In this document: positions 5,849 to 40,411 of the stretch, one piece after another
How positions within the stretch are numbered: position 1 is the first letter of the stretch
Layout of the letters: the number at the start of each line of letters is the position of its first letter
DNA from: Escherichia phage RB16
Sequence record: NC_014467.1
Length of the DNA: 64,000 nucleotides
Reading direction: 5' to 3' (one strand)
Translations under genes and position numbers: made by a program
Notes under the pieces: generated by a model
Databases searched by the model: none
Told to the model about the DNA's origin: nothing
What the model saw: the letters and a program-made list of their open reading frames with translations, nothing else

Positions 5849-6702
5849 TAATATCGGTTCCAAACTTTTTTCGCGCTGTATGGTTTTCCTTTCGACTGGA
5901 AAGCCTGTGTAGGCAACCAAACTGCTTTCGCCCAGTCTTTTGGGGCTATCTCTGCAAGAGGTGATCGCAGGTGCGCAGGTAAGTATGCTTTGATCATTTG
6001 ATCTGCACCGCGCATCCCTTTCACGTTGTTCCAGTTGATTTTCAATCTGGTTTTGTTTGAAAGGCGATCTGTTGATCCGTATCCACGTTTCAAAAGTTCT
6101 TCTAAAAACTCTTGACGGGCTTTAGGTGGCGCATAGTGCAAGTTCAAACCGTACAGAACTAAATTACCCGCTTTAGAACGTCCTGAACCCAGGAAGATGA
6201 TTAGCGGGAACCGATCCCAGTATGGTAGGGTATCTTTGTATTTCGCGTCATACACGAACGTATACAATCGCCCTGTTGCTGGTTTCGCTACCCTGTGCGT
6301 TTTGATGCTGGTTTTGATGAAGTCACCAAACCAATCGGTTGAATCCTTTTGACGTTTCGCAGCAGAAACACCCACTGTAATTTTCCGTAAACTATTTCGG
6401 AAGTCGTTGATGATGTCAACTGTATGTTTTTTGCGATAGTCATTGCGTTTTCGTCGGGCTTCGGTTTCTGCTGTACGTCGCGAGATTTCATCATCAATCT
6501 GCTGTTTATAGCGGTGCATAGACTTTGTGAACGTTGCGTATGCAATCCCGTTTTCGTCCGCGAATTTTTTGGCTGTCATGCCTTTTAATTTTGCGCGTCT
6601 GAATTTAACACCCAGTTCAACCCATTCACCAAGTTTTCGCTTCGGTGGCGGTTTCGGCTTATCTTCTTCTGCGATGATCTCAAACTCAAATATAAAACTC
6701 AT
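5848..6702 (-). CDS. 2: gp2 DNA end protector protein
   Basis: 284 aa, position and size as T4 gp2; basic N-terminus. Confidence 0.7.
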   Translation of the reverse strand: MSFIFEFEIIAEEDKPKPPPKRKLGEWVELGVKFRRAKLKGMTAKKFADENGIAYATFTKSMHRYKQQIDDEISRRTAETEARRKRNDYRKKHTVDIINDFRNSLRKITVGVSAAKRQKDSTDWFGDFIKTSIKTHRVAKPATGRLYTFVYDAKYKDTLPYWDRFPLIIFLGSGRSKAGNLVLYGLNLHYAPPKARQEFLEELLKRGYGSTDRLSNKTRLKINWNNVKGMRGADQMIKAYLPAHLRSPLAEIAPKDWAKAVWLPTQAFQSKGKPYSAKKVWNRY

Positions 6703-7388
6703 AATTCCCTCCGTTTACACTTATCACCATGCCAACGTTTAAACATACCCGGCCTGAAACTATTACCGCAGTATTGGCATTCCATTTTCTCTATATTTGA
6801 AACTGCTTCCCTTATGCGTATCTTTTGTTCTTCTGTTCGGGGTTTCCCCTTTCTAGCATCTGCTGATTTTTTTACTGCATCAGGGGGCATAGTTTTTCCT
6901 GAACATGAGATAGAAATTTTTTGTTTATGTTCTTCTGATAGAGATCTCCCTACCTTAGCGTTTCTCATCTTTTCTATAGACTGTTCGTTGAATAGCCCTG
7001 GTCGAGTTTTACCTTTCAATGGATTGACCCACCCATCTTTCATTTTGCGAGATTTACCTATTTTTGCTTTACTCATTTTCTCTCGCGTTTCGCTGGATGC
7101 TGTTGTGTATGATACCCCACCCTCCCCACCAATTTTTAAATTGTATGTGTGTTCCGATAGCACGAACTCGCGATTGACAAGTTCCTTTTCTTTATCATAC
7201 ATTTCAGAAGGGGTGTCAAACACATACAATATACTTTTTGTGAAGTTGTGTATGCCATATTTGGTTTGTGCTTTCAATAAAAGTTTACCAGACCCCATAT
7301 ACGAATCATTCACATCTGTGGTTGCATGTGCGCCGATATAAATTTTATCGTTGATATTGTTTTTAATCTGATAGACTAAATATTTCAT
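6699..7388 (-). CDS. GIY-YIG homing endonuclease (Seg-like) inserted between genes 2 and 4
   Basis: N-terminal KYLVYQIKNNINDKIYIGAHATT GIY-YIG motif; C-terminal CQYCGNSF zinc finger; start chosen at the Met before the motif, which abuts the gp4 stop (7385-7387) in ATGA form. Confidence 0.8.
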   Translation of the reverse strand: MKYLVYQIKNNINDKIYIGAHATTDVNDSYMGSGKLLLKAQTKYGIHNFTKSILYVFDTPSEMYDKEKELVNREFVLSEHTYNLKIGGEGGVSYTTASSETREKMSKAKIGKSRKMKDGWVNPLKGKTRPGLFNEQSIEKMRNAKVGRSLSEEHKQKISISCSGKTMPPDAVKKSADARKGKPRTEEQKIRIREAVSNIEKMECQYCGNSFRPGMFKRWHGDKCKRREL

Positions 7389-7858
7389 TTCTCGTACCCT
7401 TTCCATCCAAAAACACGTTTGAGGGTGTCTTCGGTTATGATCTTGAACTCCCATCCTTTTGCTTTACATGCAGCATTGGCGGCTTTCCATTTGTCTATAT
7501 TTATGGAGTAAACATAGAGAGCATCAACAAATTTCTTTTTGTTGTGAACGTTGTTGTTCGCTGGCTTAGGTGGGGGCAATGTTTCTTTCATCGGTTTGAC
7601 TTCCCATAGGTAGGTCACACCGTTATCCATCTCAACATAAAAATCCATGAAGTAACGCCGTCTTTTACCGTCTGCGTTGCTGAAATAAGGTATCACAACC
7701 TCTTCACTGTTCCAGCGTTTCACATGCGGATTCCTGTCAAGCCAGTTCATTATATATTTTTCCCAGCTTGACCGATACGTTATCTTTCGAGGATCGCCTT
7801 TATATTTTGTTATGTTCTGGGGCATAAAAGACCCCTTGTACGTCTGTCTTCCAGCCAT
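7385..7858 (-). CDS. 4: gp4 head completion protein
   Basis: 157 aa, position relative to genes 2 and 53. Confidence 0.7.
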   Translation of the reverse strand: MAGRQTYKGSFMPQNITKYKGDPRKITYRSSWEKYIMNWLDRNPHVKRWNSEEVVIPYFSNADGKRRRYFMDFYVEMDNGVTYLWEVKPMKETLPPPKPANNNVHNKKKFVDALYVYSINIDKWKAANAACKAKGWEFKIITEDTLKRVFGWKGYEK

Positions 7859-12318: not shown

Positions 12319-12996
12319 ATGAATTACGATAGGATATATAAAGCTCTTATAGATAAGCGGAGGAAAACTCCGCTTAAAGACGGATATAAGGAACATCATC
12401 ACATCATTCCTAAATCTATGGGCGGTAGTGATGATTTTGATAATATGGTGTATTTGACAGCGAGAGAACATTTCGTTGCGCATCTTTTACTCGCTCGTAT
12501 ACATGGTGGTAAGATGTGGTTTGCTGTTGCTATGATGTGTGGGCGTGGATCAAGTAGCGCGAAAGGCGTTGTCCCTACTTCTCGAATATATGAGTTAGCC
12601 AAAAAACGGGTAGCCAATGAAAGAAGTATATTGTTTTCTGGGAAATTACATCCATTATACGGAAAGCCTTGTACAGAACAACGAAGAAAACGCATAGCTG
12701 AAGGACGTAAAGGGAAAACGCATACTCAGGAAACGAAACAGAAAATGTCTGAATCGAAGAAAGGATATAAACATACTCAGGAGACGAAACAGAAAATGTC
12801 TGAGTCACGGAAGAGACAAACACCTCCTACTCTGGGTAAAAAGTTACCTTCTCCATCAATCGAAAAAAGAAAGAAACTTAGTGAGGCTATTAAAAATCAG
12901 CCAATCATCAAATGTCCATATTGCGGGTTAGAAAGTAACAGCAAAGGAAATATGGTGAGGTTTCATTTCGACAACTGCAAATATAGGAAACCATGA
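12319..12996 (+). CDS. HNH homing endonuclease with tandem NUMOD3-like DNA-binding motifs
   Basis: HNH core EHHHIIPKSMGGSDDFDNMVYLTAREHFVAH; repeats GKTHTQETKQKMSESKKG / YKHTQETKQKMSESRKR; C-terminal CPYCG zinc finger. Confidence 0.85.
   Translation: MNYDRIYKALIDKRRKTPLKDGYKEHHHIIPKSMGGSDDFDNMVYLTAREHFVAHLLLARIHGGKMWFAVAMMCGRGSSSAKGVVPTSRIYELAKKRVANERSILFSGKLHPLYGKPCTEQRRKRIAEGRKGKTHTQETKQKMSESKKGYKHTQETKQKMSESRKRQTPPTLGKKLPSPSIEKRKKLSEAIKNQPIIKCPYCGLESNSKGNMVRFHFDNCKYRKP
12721..12815 (+). repeat. tandem direct repeat (about 51 bp x2) encoding the NUMOD3 motifs
   Basis: CATACTCAGGAAACGAAACAGAAAATGTCTGAATC... repeated with few substitutions. Confidence 0.7.
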
Positions 12997-27084: not shown

Positions 27085-27831
27085 ATGCAAAACTGGGATG
27101 AAAGTTTATTCGCTCAGTTGTCAACGGGGGAGGGAGTCGATCGCAACTTAAAGGATCAAGTCACTAACCCGTATGTAAACTGGTACAAATATAACCCAAC
27201 ACAACAGCTACATGATTCACTTACAGCAGAATCAATCCAGATGAAATCACCTGATATGTATTATGTCAGACGTGAATTTGTGAATATAGATAAAATTCTG
27301 GGTGAAGACCGAGAGTCTAAATTCACGAAATCGTGGAAGATCGCTGCATATATTGAATCATATGCTAACTATGAAGGACAGCGGGACTTCTTTAGAAAAT
27401 TCGGGTTGAGTTCTAACGACGAAATGACGCTGGTACTAAATCCGCGTTTATTTGCACATCAAACTGATGGTGGTATTCCGGTGCTGGGGGATTTGGTTTA
27501 TTTCCCAATGGATAACAGCTTGTTTGAAATTACATGGGTGGAAGCAGATCCGTTCTATCAGTTCGGTGATCGTCCTCAACGTAAAATCAACCTGGCTAAA
27601 TTCATCTACACGGGCGAAGAATTGGCTCCTGAATTGCAGCGAAACGAAGGAATCCATATCGAACCTGATGCAGAACTGGATCTTGAACCTATTCGAAATC
27701 TTGACGGGCTGGCAGATATTAACATTGAACAGTACGAAGAAGACAAAGAATTTGAAAGAGAAGGTGACGAGTTTATCGAATCTTTTGATGTTGTCAACGG
27801 TCGCGGTTCTCCGTTTGCAAGTCTACCATAA
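27085..27831 (+). CDS. 14: gp14 neck protein
   Basis: 248 aa, order and size. Confidence 0.8.
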   Translation: MQNWDESLFAQLSTGEGVDRNLKDQVTNPYVNWYKYNPTQQLHDSLTAESIQMKSPDMYYVRREFVNIDKILGEDRESKFTKSWKIAAYIESYANYEGQRDFFRKFGLSSNDEMTLVLNPRLFAHQTDGGIPVLGDLVYFPMDNSLFEITWVEADPFYQFGDRPQRKINLAKFIYTGEELAPELQRNEGIHIEPDAELDLEPIRNLDGLADINIEQYEEDKEFEREGDEFIESFDVVNGRGSPFASLP

Positions 27832-27888
27832 ATAAGTTAAATGGGTATAGGCGGAAGTCTATACCCTCTTCAAAGAGGGGTTTATGAT

Positions 27889-28614
27889 ATGGTTGCAAAA
27901 ATCTCTATAGAACAACGAGAACATCAATTAAAAGAACGTTGTGCGGAATTAGAACTATCTTTTGATGGATGGGTAGACCAATCAGCGATCACAAAATATT
28001 CAAAGTTTTATGTTGTTTGCAGTAAAGGACATAGAACAGAAAAACAGATCAAACCATTTGTCAACAAAAGTCGTCCAAACGGATGTTATTTGTGTTCTCC
28101 TAAGATGAAAATATCAAAGGAAAACAGAATCGAGGAAATCAAAACTCTTGCAGATTCAATTGGATATACATTCATAGATTTCGTTGGGGTGTATAAAGAT
28201 GCTCACACAAAAATATCAATGGTTTGCGATAAAGGCCATAATTGGGATGTAAGTATAGTTGCTTTTCTCAATCAAGGTCATCGCTGTAAAAAATGCGCAA
28301 CGTCTGGGTTCAATACGAACAAACCAGCATACGTATACGTACAATCACTATCTGGAAAATTTCTGAAATTTGGGATAACCAACAGAACACCAAAGAAAAG
28401 AATGTGTGCGCAATCAAATAAATCCGTTTATAAACACGAACTGGTTTATCAAAAATTATTCGATAAAGGTATTGATGCAATGAGTATTGAACAGAAGATC
28501 AAACAATCTCTTGTTTGTGGCGTAGTTGATAAATCAGATATGATGGATGGATATACAGAAACAACAGATATATCCAATTACGATAAACTGTTGAATATTA
28601 TAGAAGGAGTATAA
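27889..28614 (+). CDS. zinc-ribbon repeat protein with C-terminal GIY-YIG-like segment; putative free-standing endonuclease between genes 14 and 15
   Basis: Two CxKGH...CxxC modules; C-terminal PAYVYVQSLSGKFLKFGITNRTPKKR resembles a GIY-x10-YIG core; start at MVAKISIE with AGAGGGG SD (track ORF starts at 27841). Confidence 0.45.
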   Translation: MVAKISIEQREHQLKERCAELELSFDGWVDQSAITKYSKFYVVCSKGHRTEKQIKPFVNKSRPNGCYLCSPKMKISKENRIEEIKTLADSIGYTFIDFVGVYKDAHTKISMVCDKGHNWDVSIVAFLNQGHRCKKCATSGFNTNKPAYVYVQSLSGKFLKFGITNRTPKKRMCAQSNKSVYKHELVYQKLFDKGIDAMSIEQKIKQSLVCGVVDKSDMMDGYTETTDISNYDKLLNIIEGV

Positions 28615-28616
28615 AA

Positions 28617-29434
28617 TTGTTTGGATACTGGTATAATAGTTCGCTGCGTAACTACATTGTTCTTATGGGACAATTGTTTAACCATGTTCAGGTTAAAAGA
28701 GTACGCGGCGATCAAGAAAAATTTATTAAGGTTCCAATTACCTACGCATCGAAAGAGAAATTTCTTGCTTCCATGAATAAACTCAACTATGCGTATAGTC
28801 AGGAAAACGTAGCAAAGACGGAAACCATTTTACCGCGAATGAACCTATCACTGGTCGATCTGCAATATAACGCAATTCGTAAAACCAGCATAGCGGTCAA
28901 CCAAAAAATGACGCAATTGCAATCACCCCGCAAGACGATCACACAGTTTAACCCTGTGCCTTATCGTTTAATTTTTGAACTGGGTGTGTATACGCGATAT
29001 GAAGACGACATGTTTCAGATCGCAGAACAGATTTTACCGTATTTTCAACCACATTTCAACTGCAAGATTACCGAACTGCATAAGAACGAAATCACAGTTG
29101 ACCGAGACATCAAAATCAGTCTCCAGTCGGTTGCACCAGATACAACGTTTGAGGGCGAAGCATCACAGCGCCGACATGTTGAATGGTCTTTCATGTTCGA
29201 ATTGCAGGGTTATCTGTACCCGCCTGTTACTGACGTTAAGGGCGAAATCAGAACAGTATACACGGATTTCTTTGCCAATATGAACCCATTGGATAAAGAT
29301 AACTTTGAATCCGTTGATAGTCAAGCCGATCCGGTAGATCTGCCTTTGCAGGATTACACGGGCGAAGAATATATTCAGACGTATTCGCACGATAAGCCGA
29401 TCCCGTCTGGTGATGAACCTCCTAAGCCGAGGGA

Positions 29435-29438
<4 letters not shown>
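28617..29438 (+). CDS. 15: gp15 tail sheath stabiliser and completion protein
   Basis: N-terminus MFGYWYNSSLRNY and ...IFELGVYTRYEDDMFQIAEQILPYFQPHF match T4 gp15; 273 aa. Confidence 0.85.
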
Positions 29439-39772: not shown

Positions 39773-40411
39773 ATGAAACACATCATTTATAAAATAACAA
39801 ACACCATCAATAACAAAATATATGTTGGTGCTCACTCAACCGAAGATATCAACGATTCATACATGGGTTCCGGTATTGCAATCAAAAAAGCGCAAAAGAA
39901 ATATGGTATGGAACATTTCACAAAAGAAATACTTCATGTATTTGATACCCGTGAAGAAATGTATGAGAAGGAAAGGGAAATAGTTGATATTGAATTCATA
40001 AATCGACCAGATACATATAATGCTGGTATTGGTGGTAAAGGTGCTCCAATGGCGTTGATTGGATGGAGTGATGAACAACGCAAGCTGATTTCCGAAAATA
40101 CTTCGAAAGCTATGCAAACTCCAGAAATGCGCGAACGCCTTTCAAAAATAAAAACAGGGAAGAAGCAATCAGAAGAATCCAACAGGAAGCGTTCAGAGAC
40201 TATCAAAGCTATGTACAAGGGTTCTGCATTCGACAGAACCGGATCTAAGCTCACAGACGCGCACAAGGCCAAAATAAGCCGTTCTGTGTCGATAGATGGA
40301 GTTGTTTACGCAAGCGGTTCCGATGCTTCTAAAGCGTTGGGGCTTTCTCGATCTGGCCTTGATTACCGTTTAAAGAGTGACAAATTTCCTGAATGGAAAT
40401 TCGTTGCATAA
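39773..40411 (+). CDS. segD: GIY-YIG homing endonuclease (SegD-like) between genes 23 and 24
   Basis: N-terminal HIIYKITNTINNKIYVGAHST GIY-YIG motif; same position as T4 segD; clear paralogue of the endonuclease at 6699-7388. Confidence 0.85.
   Translation: MKHIIYKITNTINNKIYVGAHSTEDINDSYMGSGIAIKKAQKKYGMEHFTKEILHVFDTREEMYEKEREIVDIEFINRPDTYNAGIGGKGAPMALIGWSDEQRKLISENTSKAMQTPEMRERLSKIKTGKKQSEESNRKRSETIKAMYKGSAFDRTGSKLTDAHKAKISRSVSIDGVVYASGSDASKALGLSRSGLDYRLKSDKFPEWKFVA

What the first reader, a model, noticed from the sequence alone, without database searches (positions are those of the whole stretch)
27889..28614. Zinc-ribbon repeat gene with GIY-YIG-like tail inserted between gp14 and gp15
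T4 has gp15 directly after gp14. Here a 241-aa protein with two CxKGH...CxxC modules and a C-terminal YVYVQSLSGKFLKFGITNRTPKKR segment is inserted. This may be a divergent GIY-YIG-type endonuclease with the catalytic domain at the C-terminus, which would be an unusual arrangement, or a different zinc-binding nucleic-acid-binding protein.
Basis: inference. Interest (0 to 1): 0.4.

Follow-up and report, generated by a model that had tools for sequence, protein, structure and literature searches.

The report
Free-standing zinc-finger homing endonuclease gene
The gene between the neck gene 14 and the tail gene 15 of this T4-like phage is a selfish "homing endonuclease" gene of a described phage family (zinc-finger DNA-binding repeats plus a C-terminal GIY-YIG-type nuclease); it is ordinary for such phages, but it gives a clean natural example of the gene spreading between phages.

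Summary
Window 27889-28614 (+) is an intact 241-aa ORF between gp14 and gp15 of an RB43/Lw1-like Pseudotevenvirus. It has two C-x3-H...C-x2-C modules and a C-terminal YVYV...KFGITN...R...GYTE domain.

The modules are CapR-homology zinc fingers (Pfam PF21817, E 5e-18). The C-terminal 104 residues have no direct Pfam hit. Homologues of that domain hit MUG113, T5orf172 and GIY-YIG on the same residues. A confident model (pLDDT 95) matches phage proteins named GIY-YIG or T5orf172. Tyr150, Arg171 and Glu224 are invariant or nearly so.

This architecture is the norm for the published T5orf172 family of phage homing endonucleases, so the C-terminal nuclease position is not unusual.

Population evidence supports mobility. 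The site is empty in GAP161 and CfP1 and holds an unrelated HNH "mobE" gene in RB43. The gene is 99.2-99.7% identical in phages whose flanks are 77-91% identical. JC03 differs from its near-identical relative GAP161 by the gene plus a 70-105 bp co-converted tract in gene 15. In the window the gene marks a switch from CfP1-like to Lw1-like sequence. dN/dS is about 0.06-0.09.

Verdict: a new member of a known kind, of low to moderate interest. Nuclease activity and target site are inferred, not shown.

The parts
27889..28614 (+). Homing endonuclease ORF, 241 aa plus stop
   Evidence: ORF list and sequence. PHROG 681 'endonuclease', E 1.5e-62. Copies 98-99.6% identical, annotated endonuclease or putative GIY-YIG nuclease, in Lw1, leE, JC03, Cronuts, phi1_146010/15 and UPEC03.
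27889..28104 (+). Zinc module 1 (residues 1-72): helix, three strands, short helix; ligands C44, H48, C66, C69
   Evidence: Pfam CapR homology domain, two stretches. AF2 secondary structure H7-20, E23-28, E39-44, E49-53, H54-58. Internal repeat with module 2, E 6e-07.
28105..28299 (+). Zinc module 2 (residues 73-137): ligands C113, H117, C133, C136
   Evidence: Best CapR stretch covers residues 84-137, E 5e-18; DUF4379 treble-clef match is weak. C113 and C136 are invariant, and C66, C69 and C133 nearly invariant, across homologues.
28300..28611 (+). C-terminal GIY-YIG-superfamily (T5orf172/MUG113-like) nuclease-type domain, residues 138-241. Proposed catalytic residues: Y150, K160-F161-G162, R171, E224.
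   Evidence: No direct Pfam hit. 622 cluster representatives match at E <= 1e-3. 52 of 117 homologues hit MUG113, 22 T5orf172 and 1 GIY-YIG, on the same residues. AF2 pLDDT 95.4, beta-beta-alpha-beta-alpha-(beta)-alpha. BFVD matches reach E 3e-12 and include proteins named GIY-YIG or T5 Orf172. Invariant residues.
27867..28613 (+). Inserted cassette relative to empty-site phages (leader, ORF, and the new Shine-Dalgarno GAAGGAG for gene 15)
   Evidence: Junction alignments against GAP161 and CfP1 (empty) and RB43, YI837 and phi1_146002 (mobE).
27843..27866 (+). Hairpin GGGTATAGGC-GGAA-GTCTATACCC, present in occupied and empty sites; the cassette starts immediately after it
   Evidence: RNA fold z = -4.7 for 27815-27900. 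Conserved in all eight aligned sequences, without covariation.
27867..27880 (+). Small hairpin CUCUU-CAA-AGAGG that covers the HEG Shine-Dalgarno; part of a ~26-nt leader shared with the unrelated mobE cassette
   Evidence: A regulatory role is inferred only.
27829..27836 (+). CATAAATA: 7 of 8 match to the T4 late-promoter consensus TATAAATA, overlapping the gp14 stop codon
   Evidence: Read from the sequence. Exact TATAAATA is enriched in the window (9 found, 2.6 expected) but none lies here. Inference only.
28617..28722 (+). Co-conversion tract in the 5' end of gene 15 (certain to 28685; ends before 28723). Gene 15 starts with TTG here and with ATG in empty-site phages.
   Evidence: Over this tract JC03, leE, Cronuts and phi1_146010 carry the window/Lw1 sequence. 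From 28723 onward they follow GAP161.
28652..28685 (+). Candidate target/immunity patch: 13 of 34 positions differ between HEG+ and HEG- alleles, 12 of them synonymous (one Ala-to-Gln replacement accounts for the rest)
   Evidence: It is the single most divergent 34-nt window between JC03 and GAP161 (13 mismatches, at most 5 elsewhere). It is in the top ~1% of windows between Lw1 and GAP161.
27811..27819 (.). Left mosaic breakpoint. Upstream sequence is 99.3-100% CfP1/Miller/RB43-like back to about 15.5 kb. Downstream of the HEG it is 99-100% Lw1-like to about 38 kb.
27085..27831 (+). gp14 neck protein (upstream neighbour)
   Evidence: PF11649, E 8.5e-86.
28617..29438 (+). gp15 tail sheath stabiliser (downstream neighbour; start codon 3 nt after the HEG stop)
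   Evidence: PF16724, E 1.7e-97.

Best explanation
The ORF is a free-standing homing endonuclease gene (HEG) of the phage family that joins N-terminal CapR-type zinc-finger DNA-binding repeats to a C-terminal T5orf172/MUG113-like nuclease domain of the GIY-YIG superfamily.

Proposed mechanism:
- During mixed infection with a related phage lacking the gene, the two zinc modules bind a long asymmetric site at the gp14/gp15 junction of the HEG-less genome. The most likely site is within the first ~70-105 bp of gene 15, around 28652-28685.
- The tethered nuclease domain cuts nearby, using Arg171 and a metal bound by Glu224, with Tyr150.
- T4-type recombinational repair copies the HEG and adjacent gene 15 sequence from the HEG+ genome into the break.
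- The HEG+ genome is protected by the mostly synonymous differences in that patch.
- Expression is probably from the late transcript that also serves gene 15, and is limited by a hairpin over the ribosome-binding site.

Shown here: the domain content, the fold class, the presence/absence polymorphism, horizontal spread with a co-conversion tract, the position at a recombination boundary, and purifying selection.

Inferred: nuclease activity, the cleavage site, the immunity mechanism and the regulation.
For: Domains: two CapR-homology stretches, E 5e-18; an internal repeat; PHROG 681 'endonuclease', E 1.5e-62.

Nuclease domain:
- phmmer of residues 138-241 finds 622 cluster representatives, almost always at the C-terminus of 250-620 aa proteins.
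- 52 of 117 homologues hit MUG113, 22 hit T5orf172 and 1 hits GIY-YIG.
- In P0099 these hits exceed Pfam's gathering scores on the residues that align to this domain at E 3e-10.
- The AF2 domain model has pLDDT 95.4 and pTM 0.86, with beta-beta-alpha-beta-alpha topology.
- Foldseek against viral models gives E down to 3e-12, including 'GIY-YIG domain-containing protein' (E 1.6e-8, TM 0.89), 'Homing endonuclease' and 'T5 Orf172 ... domain-containing protein' (E 2e-6).
- The best PDB hits are 1ywl and 1zg2 (UPF0213) and Slx1 (TM 0.39-0.56 on the query; E-values not significant). That these are GIY-YIG folds is from my own knowledge.
- Across homologues, K160, G162, E201 and G221 are invariant, and Y150, T164, R171 and T223-E224-T225 are invariant or nearly so.

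Literature: the T5orf172 domain of ICP1 Odn cleaves DNA in vitro, and E180A, aligned to the I-TevI catalytic Glu, abolishes cleavage (PMC8263062). The CapR cysteines are required for DNA binding (PMC8096241). 200 of 229 T5orf172 HEGs carry CapR, DUF723 or DUF4379 fingers, and such HEGs sit at boundaries of genetic exchange (PMC10448857).

Mobility:
- The site is empty in GAP161, CfP1 and others, holds mobE in RB43, Miller and YI837, and holds a remnant in phi1_146002.
- HEG nucleotide identity is 99.2-99.7% where the flanks are 77-91%.
- JC03 versus GAP161 (98.6% identical overall in the compared region) shows the insertion plus a tract at 28617-28685.
- The window switches from CfP1-like to Lw1-like sequence at the HEG.
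- Orthologues lie at the same site in the more distant contigs L018 and L019, with dN/dS about 0.06 and 0.09, including the nuclease domain.
Against: - The protein itself hits no Pfam or NCBIfam GIY-YIG, T5orf172 or MUG113 model, even at E 10, and no PDB sequence.
- The second Tyr of the GIY-YIG motif is Phe here (K-F-G).
- All HEG+ Cronobacter and Klebsiella phages share one tract endpoint, so they may descend from a single transfer event.
- The 'immune' gene 15 variant also occurs in mobE-bearing RB43, so it may simply be the donor lineage's allele.
- The RNA hairpins show no covariation.
- No cleavage was observed.
Confidence: 0.8

Rival explanations
1. A domesticated or nuclease-dead derivative: a sequence-specific DNA-binding regulator. 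Examples of this kind are the satellite repressor CapR, or I-TevI acting as an autorepressor. It would tune late transcription at the gp14/gp15 junction without cutting DNA.
For: CapR-type fingers alone can act as a promoter-binding repressor (PMC8096241). The nuclease domain falls below all Pfam thresholds. The gene lies next to a late-promoter-like CATAAATA and a conserved hairpin. The distant orthologue L018 looks vertically inherited with its flanks.
Against: The presumed catalytic Arg and Glu and the whole C-terminal domain are conserved under dN/dS of about 0.07. The gene is dispensable, being absent from near-identical phages. Recent spread with a co-conversion tract is what DNA breakage predicts.
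Confidence: 0.1
2. An active nuclease whose main role is not homing. It could be a weapon against competing phages, satellites or host DNA (as with ICP1 Odn), or a nickase, that merely happens to sit in a hotspot for insertions.
For: T5orf172 nucleases have been co-opted against satellites (PMC8263062). The gp14/gp15 spacer accepts unrelated cassettes (mobE) and shares a leader with them.
Against: Orthologues at 73-99% identity all sit at exactly the same site. The co-converted tract adjoins the gene. The protein has no hit in PADLOC. Marker exclusion by a homing enzyme would look the same, so this overlaps with the main explanation.
Confidence: 0.07
3. A neck or tail assembly accessory protein, as its position in the structural operon might suggest.
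For: Only its position between gp14 and gp15.
Against: It is absent from most members of the genus, including a phage otherwise 98.6% identical over the compared region. Homologues sit in unrelated contexts, for example T5.141 between the tail chaperone and the tape-measure gene. The domain content is that of a DNA-binding protein plus nuclease.
Confidence: 0.01

Closest known systems
T5orf172-family phage homing endonucleases with CapR/DUF723/DUF4379 zinc-finger repeats (ICP1 Gp165, Gp174 and others; Barth et al. 2023, PMC10448857; Netter et al. 2021, PMC8096241)
   Same: The order of domains matches: repeated zinc-finger DNA-binding modules followed by a C-terminal GIY-YIG-superfamily nuclease domain. 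The gene stands free next to essential structural and packaging genes, is variably present among relatives, and sits at a boundary of genetic exchange.
   Different: The nuclease domain of this protein does not reach the T5orf172 or MUG113 HMMs, which is the criterion those authors used. It belongs to a divergent KFGITN...DGYTET clade. The first ligand pair of its fingers is C-x3-H, not the CxxC...CxC described for CapR. No member of this clade has been assayed.
Escherichia phage T5 gene T5.141 and RB49 ORF238c/239c-like proteins
   Same: 36% identity over the full length (E 7e-36). The architecture is the same (two CapR stretches plus the same C-terminal domain), and the gene is also wedged into a structural operon.
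   Different: The host phage family and the insertion site differ (between the tail assembly chaperone and the tape-measure gene). These proteins are also uncharacterised.
ICP1 Odn (Gp88), the only T5orf172 nuclease with biochemical data cited here (PMC8263062)
   Same: A C-terminal T5orf172-type domain retaining the Arg and Glu. Specificity is provided by a separate N-terminal DNA-binding domain.
   Different: Odn uses a RepA_N domain and targets a satellite replication origin; it is a domesticated defence nuclease, not a homing element. Its similarity to this protein was not measured directly here.
Classical GIY-YIG homing endonucleases (I-TevI, T4 Seg proteins). Two such genes lie in this window at 39773-40411 and 6699-7454.
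   Same: The same superfamily fold and catalytic logic, a 'beads on a string' modular design, a free-standing gene in T4-like phages, and homing with co-conversion of flanking markers.
   Different: The domain order is reversed (their catalytic domain is N-terminal). They use NUMOD3 or helix-turn-helix DNA-binding modules rather than tandem zinc fingers. There is no PF01541 hit here, and the second motif Tyr is Phe.
MobE-type HNH/NUMOD3 endonuclease of RB43, Miller and YI837
   Same: It occupies exactly the same insertion point after the same hairpin. It shares a ~26-nt leader, including its ATG.
   Different: The protein is unrelated (NUMOD3 hit in the RB43 copy; 52% nucleotide identity, which is background).

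Membership tests
CapR-finger / T5orf172-type phage homing endonucleases (PMC10448857) | One or more CapR, DUF723 or DUF4379 zinc-finger DNA-binding domains | tested here: met
   PF21817 CapR, E 5.2e-18, 65 bits against a cut-off of 24.2, two stretches; DUF4379 is below threshold.
CapR-finger / T5orf172-type phage homing endonucleases (PMC10448857) | T5orf172 (PF10544) or MUG113 (PF13455) domain detected by HMM at E <= 0.001 | tested here: not met
   No hit for the whole protein or for the isolated domain, even at E 10. It is linked only through homologues (52 of 117 hit MUG113, 22 of 117 hit T5orf172; P0099 is above the gathering scores on the aligned residues) and through the predicted fold.
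CapR-finger / T5orf172-type phage homing endonucleases (PMC10448857) | Nuclease domain at one terminus (C-terminal in the ICP1 examples) | tested here: met
   The domain is residues 138-241 of 241. In 125 homologues it ends a median of 6 residues from the C-terminus.
GIY-YIG superfamily | Three-stranded sheet with flanking helices (beta-beta-alpha-beta-alpha-alpha core) | tested here: inconclusive
GIY-YIG superfamily | Conserved Tyr (GIY), Tyr/Gly (YIG), Arg in helix 1, and a metal-binding Glu | tested here: inconclusive
   Y150, G162, R171 and E224 are invariant or nearly invariant and lie in the expected secondary-structure elements. The second Tyr is Phe161. Equivalence to I-TevI residues is inferred, not aligned (one search gave no alignment).
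GIY-YIG superfamily | Metal-dependent DNA cleavage | not testable with these tools
   Needs a nuclease assay. Shown only for the T5orf172 protein Odn (PMC8263062).
Canonical GIY-YIG homing endonucleases (I-TevI/Seg, PF01541) | PF01541 match with an N-terminal catalytic domain and a C-terminal DNA-binding domain | tested here: not met
   No PF01541 hit, and the domain order is reversed. The window's true Seg-like genes do hit PF01541 at their N-termini.
Homing endonuclease gene (functional class) | Presence/absence polymorphism at a fixed site among close relatives | tested here: met
   8 of 68 matching records carry the gene. The others have an empty site, mobE or a remnant. JC03(+) and GAP161(0) belong to the same species.
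Homing endonuclease gene (functional class) | The gene is more conserved than its flanks, and flanking markers are co-converted | tested here: met
   99.2-99.7% identity against 77-91% for the flanks. A tract at 28617-28685 was transferred with the gene.
Homing endonuclease gene (functional class) | The enzyme cleaves the HEG-less allele, and the gene is inherited at more than the input ratio in crosses | not testable with these tools
   Needs biochemistry and phage crosses.
CapR repressor of the V. cholerae PLE satellite | DNA-binding fingers only, with no nuclease domain; encoded by a satellite | tested here: not met
   This protein has a conserved C-terminal nuclease-type domain and is phage-encoded.

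The most novel reading that the evidence does not exclude
Two things could be new. First, the C-terminal KFGITN...R...DGYTET domain may define a large clade of the GIY-YIG superfamily that has no model of its own. It has 622 clusters at 50% identity, and this protein is invisible to Pfam and NCBIfam. The clade may differ in chemistry from T5orf172 or I-TevI, for example by having Phe in place of the second motif Tyr and an invariant Glu201. Second, the gp14/gp15 spacer may act as a landing pad where unrelated endonuclease genes (HNH MobE-type and this one) replace one another by recombination within a shared ~26-nt leader. That would be cassette exchange between homing endonucleases, not independent invasions.
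Probability: 0.35. Interest if true: 0.4.

Novelty: new member of a known kind. Interest (0 to 1): 0.25.

Why it matters
For annotation, the gene should be called a putative homing endonuclease (CapR-type zinc fingers plus a GIY-YIG-superfamily nuclease), not a structural protein or a hypothetical one.

For biology, the locus is a compact natural experiment:
- The same site is seen in four states: empty, HNH-occupied, remnant and zinc-finger/GIY-YIG-occupied.
- One pair of near-identical phages differs only by the gene plus a ~70-105 bp tract, which narrows the likely cleavage site to a few dozen bases of gene 15.
- The window genome has its parental switch point exactly at the gene.

This supports the published view that such nucleases mark boundaries of genetic exchange in phages. 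It also gives a tractable E. coli, Cronobacter or Citrobacter phage system for the first biochemical test of this clade. Modular zinc-finger nucleases with long natural targets are also of some interest as engineering scaffolds.

Tried and rejected
- Direct HMM searches of the whole protein and of the isolated C-terminal domain against Pfam (E up to 10), NCBIfam (E up to 10) and PADLOC found nothing for the nuclease domain.
- A PDB sequence search found no hit at E 10.
The sequence is unverified, so this is a weak negative.
- Foldseek of the full-length three-domain model against the PDB returned only spurious beta-alpha-beta matches. The isolated domain model was used instead.
- A consensus RNA fold of the leader found no compensatory changes, because the sequences are too similar. 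The hairpins therefore remain predictions.
- No sigma-70-type promoter lies on the + strand near the gene, and there is no exact TATAAATA there.
- The upstream ATG at 27841 (257-aa ORF, used in the phi1_146010 annotation) was rejected as the start. It has no Shine-Dalgarno sequence, and the extension is not conserved in L018.
- The structural-protein reading was rejected because the gene is dispensable in close relatives.
Full report

Yes. The mechanical ORF list gives 27841-28614 (+). The in-frame ATG at 27889 gives 241 aa plus a stop codon.

The 27889 start is preceded by GAGGGG. It is the start annotated in Lw1, JC03, leE and Cronuts. In a distant orthologue (L018) the equivalent codon is a GTG behind AAGGAG, and the upstream extension is not conserved.

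The two modules are C44-x3-H48...C66-x2-C69 and C113-x3-H117...C133-x2-C136. The two halves align as an internal repeat (E 6e-07). The quoted C-terminal string is residues 148-171.

The neighbours are gp14 (PF11649, E 8.5e-86) and gp15 (PF16724, E 1.7e-97).

**2. What genome is this?**

The region is 97.4% identical to Escherichia phage Lw1. It matches 68 records of the RB43-like genus Pseudotevenvirus.

Eight records (six phages) carry the same gene at 98-99.6% protein identity. Their annotations are 'hypothetical protein', 'endonuclease', 'putative endonuclease' or 'putative GIY-YIG nuclease family protein'. A seventh phage, UPEC03, also carries it at 98.3%, but its record ends inside the query region, so it falls below the 80% coverage count.

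**3. Domain content**

*N-terminal half.* It matches the Pfam 'CapR homology domain' twice (E 5e-18) and weakly matches the treble-clef DUF4379. PHROG 681 'endonuclease' matches the full length (E 1.5e-62).

*C-terminal domain, direct searches.* The C-terminal 104 residues have no direct hit in Pfam, NCBIfam, PADLOC or PDB sequences.

*C-terminal domain, homologues.* A full HMMER scan of 1.8 billion cluster representatives with this domain alone found 622 clusters at E <= 1e-3. The domain is almost always at the extreme C-terminus of 250-620 aa proteins (median 6 residues to the end). Of 117 such homologues:
- 74 hit CapR, 48 hit DUF4379 and 39 hit DUF723.
- 52 hit MUG113, 22 hit T5orf172 and 1 hits GIY-YIG.

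Those nuclease-family hits fall on the residues that align to this domain. In P0099 they exceed Pfam's gathering scores (MUG113 26.4 bits, T5orf172 21.5 bits), and P0099 matches this domain at E 3e-10.

*Predicted structure.* AlphaFold2 on a 45-sequence alignment of the isolated domain gave pLDDT 95.4 and pTM 0.86. The order of elements is E-E-H-E-H-(E)-H, as expected for a GIY-YIG core.

Foldseek against predicted viral structures gave 90 hits at E <= 1e-3. They include 'GIY-YIG domain-containing protein' (K64-1, E 1.6e-8, TM 0.89), 'Homing endonuclease' (phage UB) and 'Bacteriophage T5 Orf172 DNA-binding domain-containing protein' (E 2e-6, TM 0.75).

Against solved structures, the two top hits were 1ywl and 1zg2 (UPF0213), with Slx1 at rank 12. 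From my own knowledge these are GIY-YIG folds. TM on the query was 0.39-0.56 and the E-values were not significant.

*Conserved residues.* K160, G162, E201 and G221 are invariant across homologues. Y150, T164, R171 and T223-E224-T225 are invariant or nearly so.

I read Y150 as the 'GIY' tyrosine, K-F-G as the 'YIG' equivalent, R171 as the helix-1 arginine and E224 as the metal-binding glutamate. This assignment is inferred from position in the predicted secondary structure, not from a validated alignment.

**4. Comparison with the literature**

- Netter et al. (PMC8096241) showed that the satellite repressor CapR resembles the N-terminal domains of ICP1 proteins. [quoted passage not shown] They also showed that the CapR cysteines are needed for DNA binding.
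- Barth et al. 2021 (PMC8263062) showed that the T5orf172 protein Odn cleaves DNA in vitro. E180A, the counterpart of the I-TevI catalytic Glu, abolishes the activity. They note that T5orf172 keeps the Arg and Glu but lacks the helix-1 His/Tyr.
- Barth et al. 2023 (PMC10448857) found that 200 of 229 T5orf172 HEGs carry CapR, DUF723 or DUF4379 fingers, often repeated. They also found that such HEGs cluster next to essential genes and occupy boundaries of genetic exchange.

It is unusual only against I-TevI/Seg enzymes, two of which lie elsewhere in this window with N-terminal PF01541 domains.

**5. Evidence that the gene moves**

*(a) The site is polymorphic.*
- It is empty in GAP161, CfP1, IME-CF2 and many others, with a 58-79 nt spacer.
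- It holds a 204-aa 'mobE' HNH-type gene in RB43, Miller and YI837 (NUMOD3 hit for the RB43 copy).
- It holds a remnant in phi1_146002.

*(b) The cassette has sharp junctions.* It begins immediately after a conserved hairpin (...CTATACCC, 27866). It ends at the stop codon 3 nt before the gene 15 start.

*(c) The gene is far more conserved than its flanks.* The table gives nucleotide identity to the window.

| Segment | JC03, leE, Cronuts, phi1_146010 |
|---|---|
| HEG | 99.2-99.7% |
| wac region | 77-78% |
| gp13 | 86-87% |
| gp14 | 90-91% |
| gp16 | 81-82% |

*(d) One near-identical pair isolates the event.* JC03 and GAP161 are 98.6% identical over the compared region. They differ by the gene plus a block at 28617-28685, where JC03 and the other HEG+ Cronobacter and Klebsiella phages carry the window/Lw1 allele. 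From 28723 onward they revert to the GAP161 allele.

The 34-nt window 28652-28685 holds 13 mismatches, with a maximum of 5 anywhere else between these two phages. It is within the top ~1% of windows between Lw1 and GAP161. All the changes but those making one Ala/Gln replacement are synonymous.

*(e) The window genome switches parent at the gene.*
- About 12 kb to the left (~15.5 kb to 27811) is 99.3-100% identical to CfP1, Miller and RB43.
- About 10 kb to the right (to ~38 kb) is 99-100% identical to Lw1, but only 86-96% identical to CfP1.

*(f) Orthologues sit at the same site in more distant phages.* L019 is 93% identical and L018 is 73% identical at protein level, and both lie at the same gp14/gp15 site of T4-like metagenomic contigs. 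dN/dS is about 0.09 and 0.06. For L018 dS is saturated, so that value is approximate. The nuclease domain shows the same constraint (about 0.07).

The gene is therefore both long-lived under purifying selection and recently transferred horizontally.

**6. Likely mechanism**

Inferred steps:
1. The tandem zinc modules bind a long site in the HEG-less gp14/gp15 junction.
2. The tethered GIY-YIG-type domain cuts nearby.
3. Recombinational repair copies the cassette together with the first 70-105 bp of gene 15.

A co-conversion tract must span from the insertion point to the break. That places the likely cleavage site inside gene 15 nucleotides 1-105. The dense patch at 28652-28685 is the best candidate for the recognition and immunity determinant.

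There is a caveat. RB43 (mobE+) also carries this allele, and YI837 (mobE+) does not. The patch may therefore just be the donor lineage's allele.

**7. Expression (inference only)**

- The gp14 stop codon overlaps CATAAATA, a 7 of 8 match to the T4 late-promoter consensus. No exact match lies there, and there is no sigma-70-type site on the + strand.
- The leader folds into the conserved 10-bp hairpin followed by a 5-6 bp hairpin that covers the Shine-Dalgarno sequence (z = -4.7 for 27815-27900). No covariation is available to support the fold.
- The cassette supplies a new Shine-Dalgarno (GAAGGAG) for gene 15. The gene 15 start codon is TTG here and ATG in empty-site phages.

**8. Rivals**

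- A nuclease-dead regulator is disfavoured by conservation of the catalytic-type residues, by dispensability and by the co-conversion signature.
- A non-homing weapon nuclease cannot be excluded, but it overlaps with homing-associated marker exclusion.
- A structural role is excluded by absence from near-identical phages.

**9. Verdict**

This is an uncharacterised member of a described family, already carried and loosely annotated in several GenBank phages. It is a new member of a known kind, of low to moderate interest.

Two points may go beyond the ordinary:
- The nuclease domain is invisible to current curated models despite a large clade of relatives.
- It shares an insertion point and a ~26-nt leader with the unrelated mobE cassette, which suggests that one cassette replaced the other.

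Noticed in passing
window 39773-40411 (+): A 212-aa classical GIY-YIG homing endonuclease lies between the major capsid gene (gp23) and gp24. It has an N-terminal PF01541 domain and an I-TevI-type DNA-binding domain (PF20987, E 1.7e-27). It is absent at the collinear position of both CfP1 and Lw1. The window switches from CfP1-like to Lw1-like sequence across it.
   Followed up: partly
window 6699-7454 (-): A 251-aa Seg-like GIY-YIG/NUMOD3 endonuclease lies next to gp2 (DNA end protector). It is absent at the collinear position of CfP1 and Lw1, and the nearest-relative identity switches here from Lw1-like to CfP1-like.
   Followed up: partly
window 12319-12996 (+): A 225-aa HNH plus NUMOD3 endonuclease lies just upstream of the gp6 baseplate gene. 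It is absent at the collinear position of CfP1 and Lw1. The 64-kb window therefore holds at least four free-standing endonuclease genes.
   Followed up: partly
window 1-50000: The genome is a patchwork of near-identical (99-100%) blocks from CfP1/Miller-like and Lw1-like parents. Roughly: 2-6.7 kb Lw1-like; 15.5-27.8 kb CfP1-like; 27.8-38 kb Lw1-like; 38-39.7 kb CfP1-like; 40.4-42 kb Lw1-like. Three of the switch points (6.7, 27.8 and 39.7 kb) coincide with endonuclease genes; the switches near 15.5 and 38 kb do not.
   Followed up: partly
window 27867-27891; L004/L005/L007 about 1385-1410: The unrelated mobE cassette and this cassette share a ~26-nt leader, TCTTCRAAGAGGRKTTTATGATAT. The mobE ATG corresponds to window 27884, which here is out of frame and opens an 8-codon ORF that overlaps the real start at 27889.
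   Followed up: partly
window 28617; L004 about 2026: The gene 15 start codon differs with the state of the site. It is ATG in empty-site phages and in L018, TTG in Lw1-type HEG+ phages, and apparently ATT in RB43. The RB43 record instead annotates a shorter gene 15 from a downstream ATG.
   Followed up: no
L002 2501-3253 (phage T5, T5.141): A 36%-identical homologue with the same architecture sits between the T5 tail assembly chaperone and tape-measure genes, directly after an annotated terminator.
   Followed up: partly
window 27815-27833 with 27880-27898: The predicted fold includes a long-range pairing between the last codons of gp14 and the HEG start region, in addition to the two local hairpins. 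It would occlude the start codon only in read-through transcripts from upstream. There is no covariation to support it.
   Followed up: no
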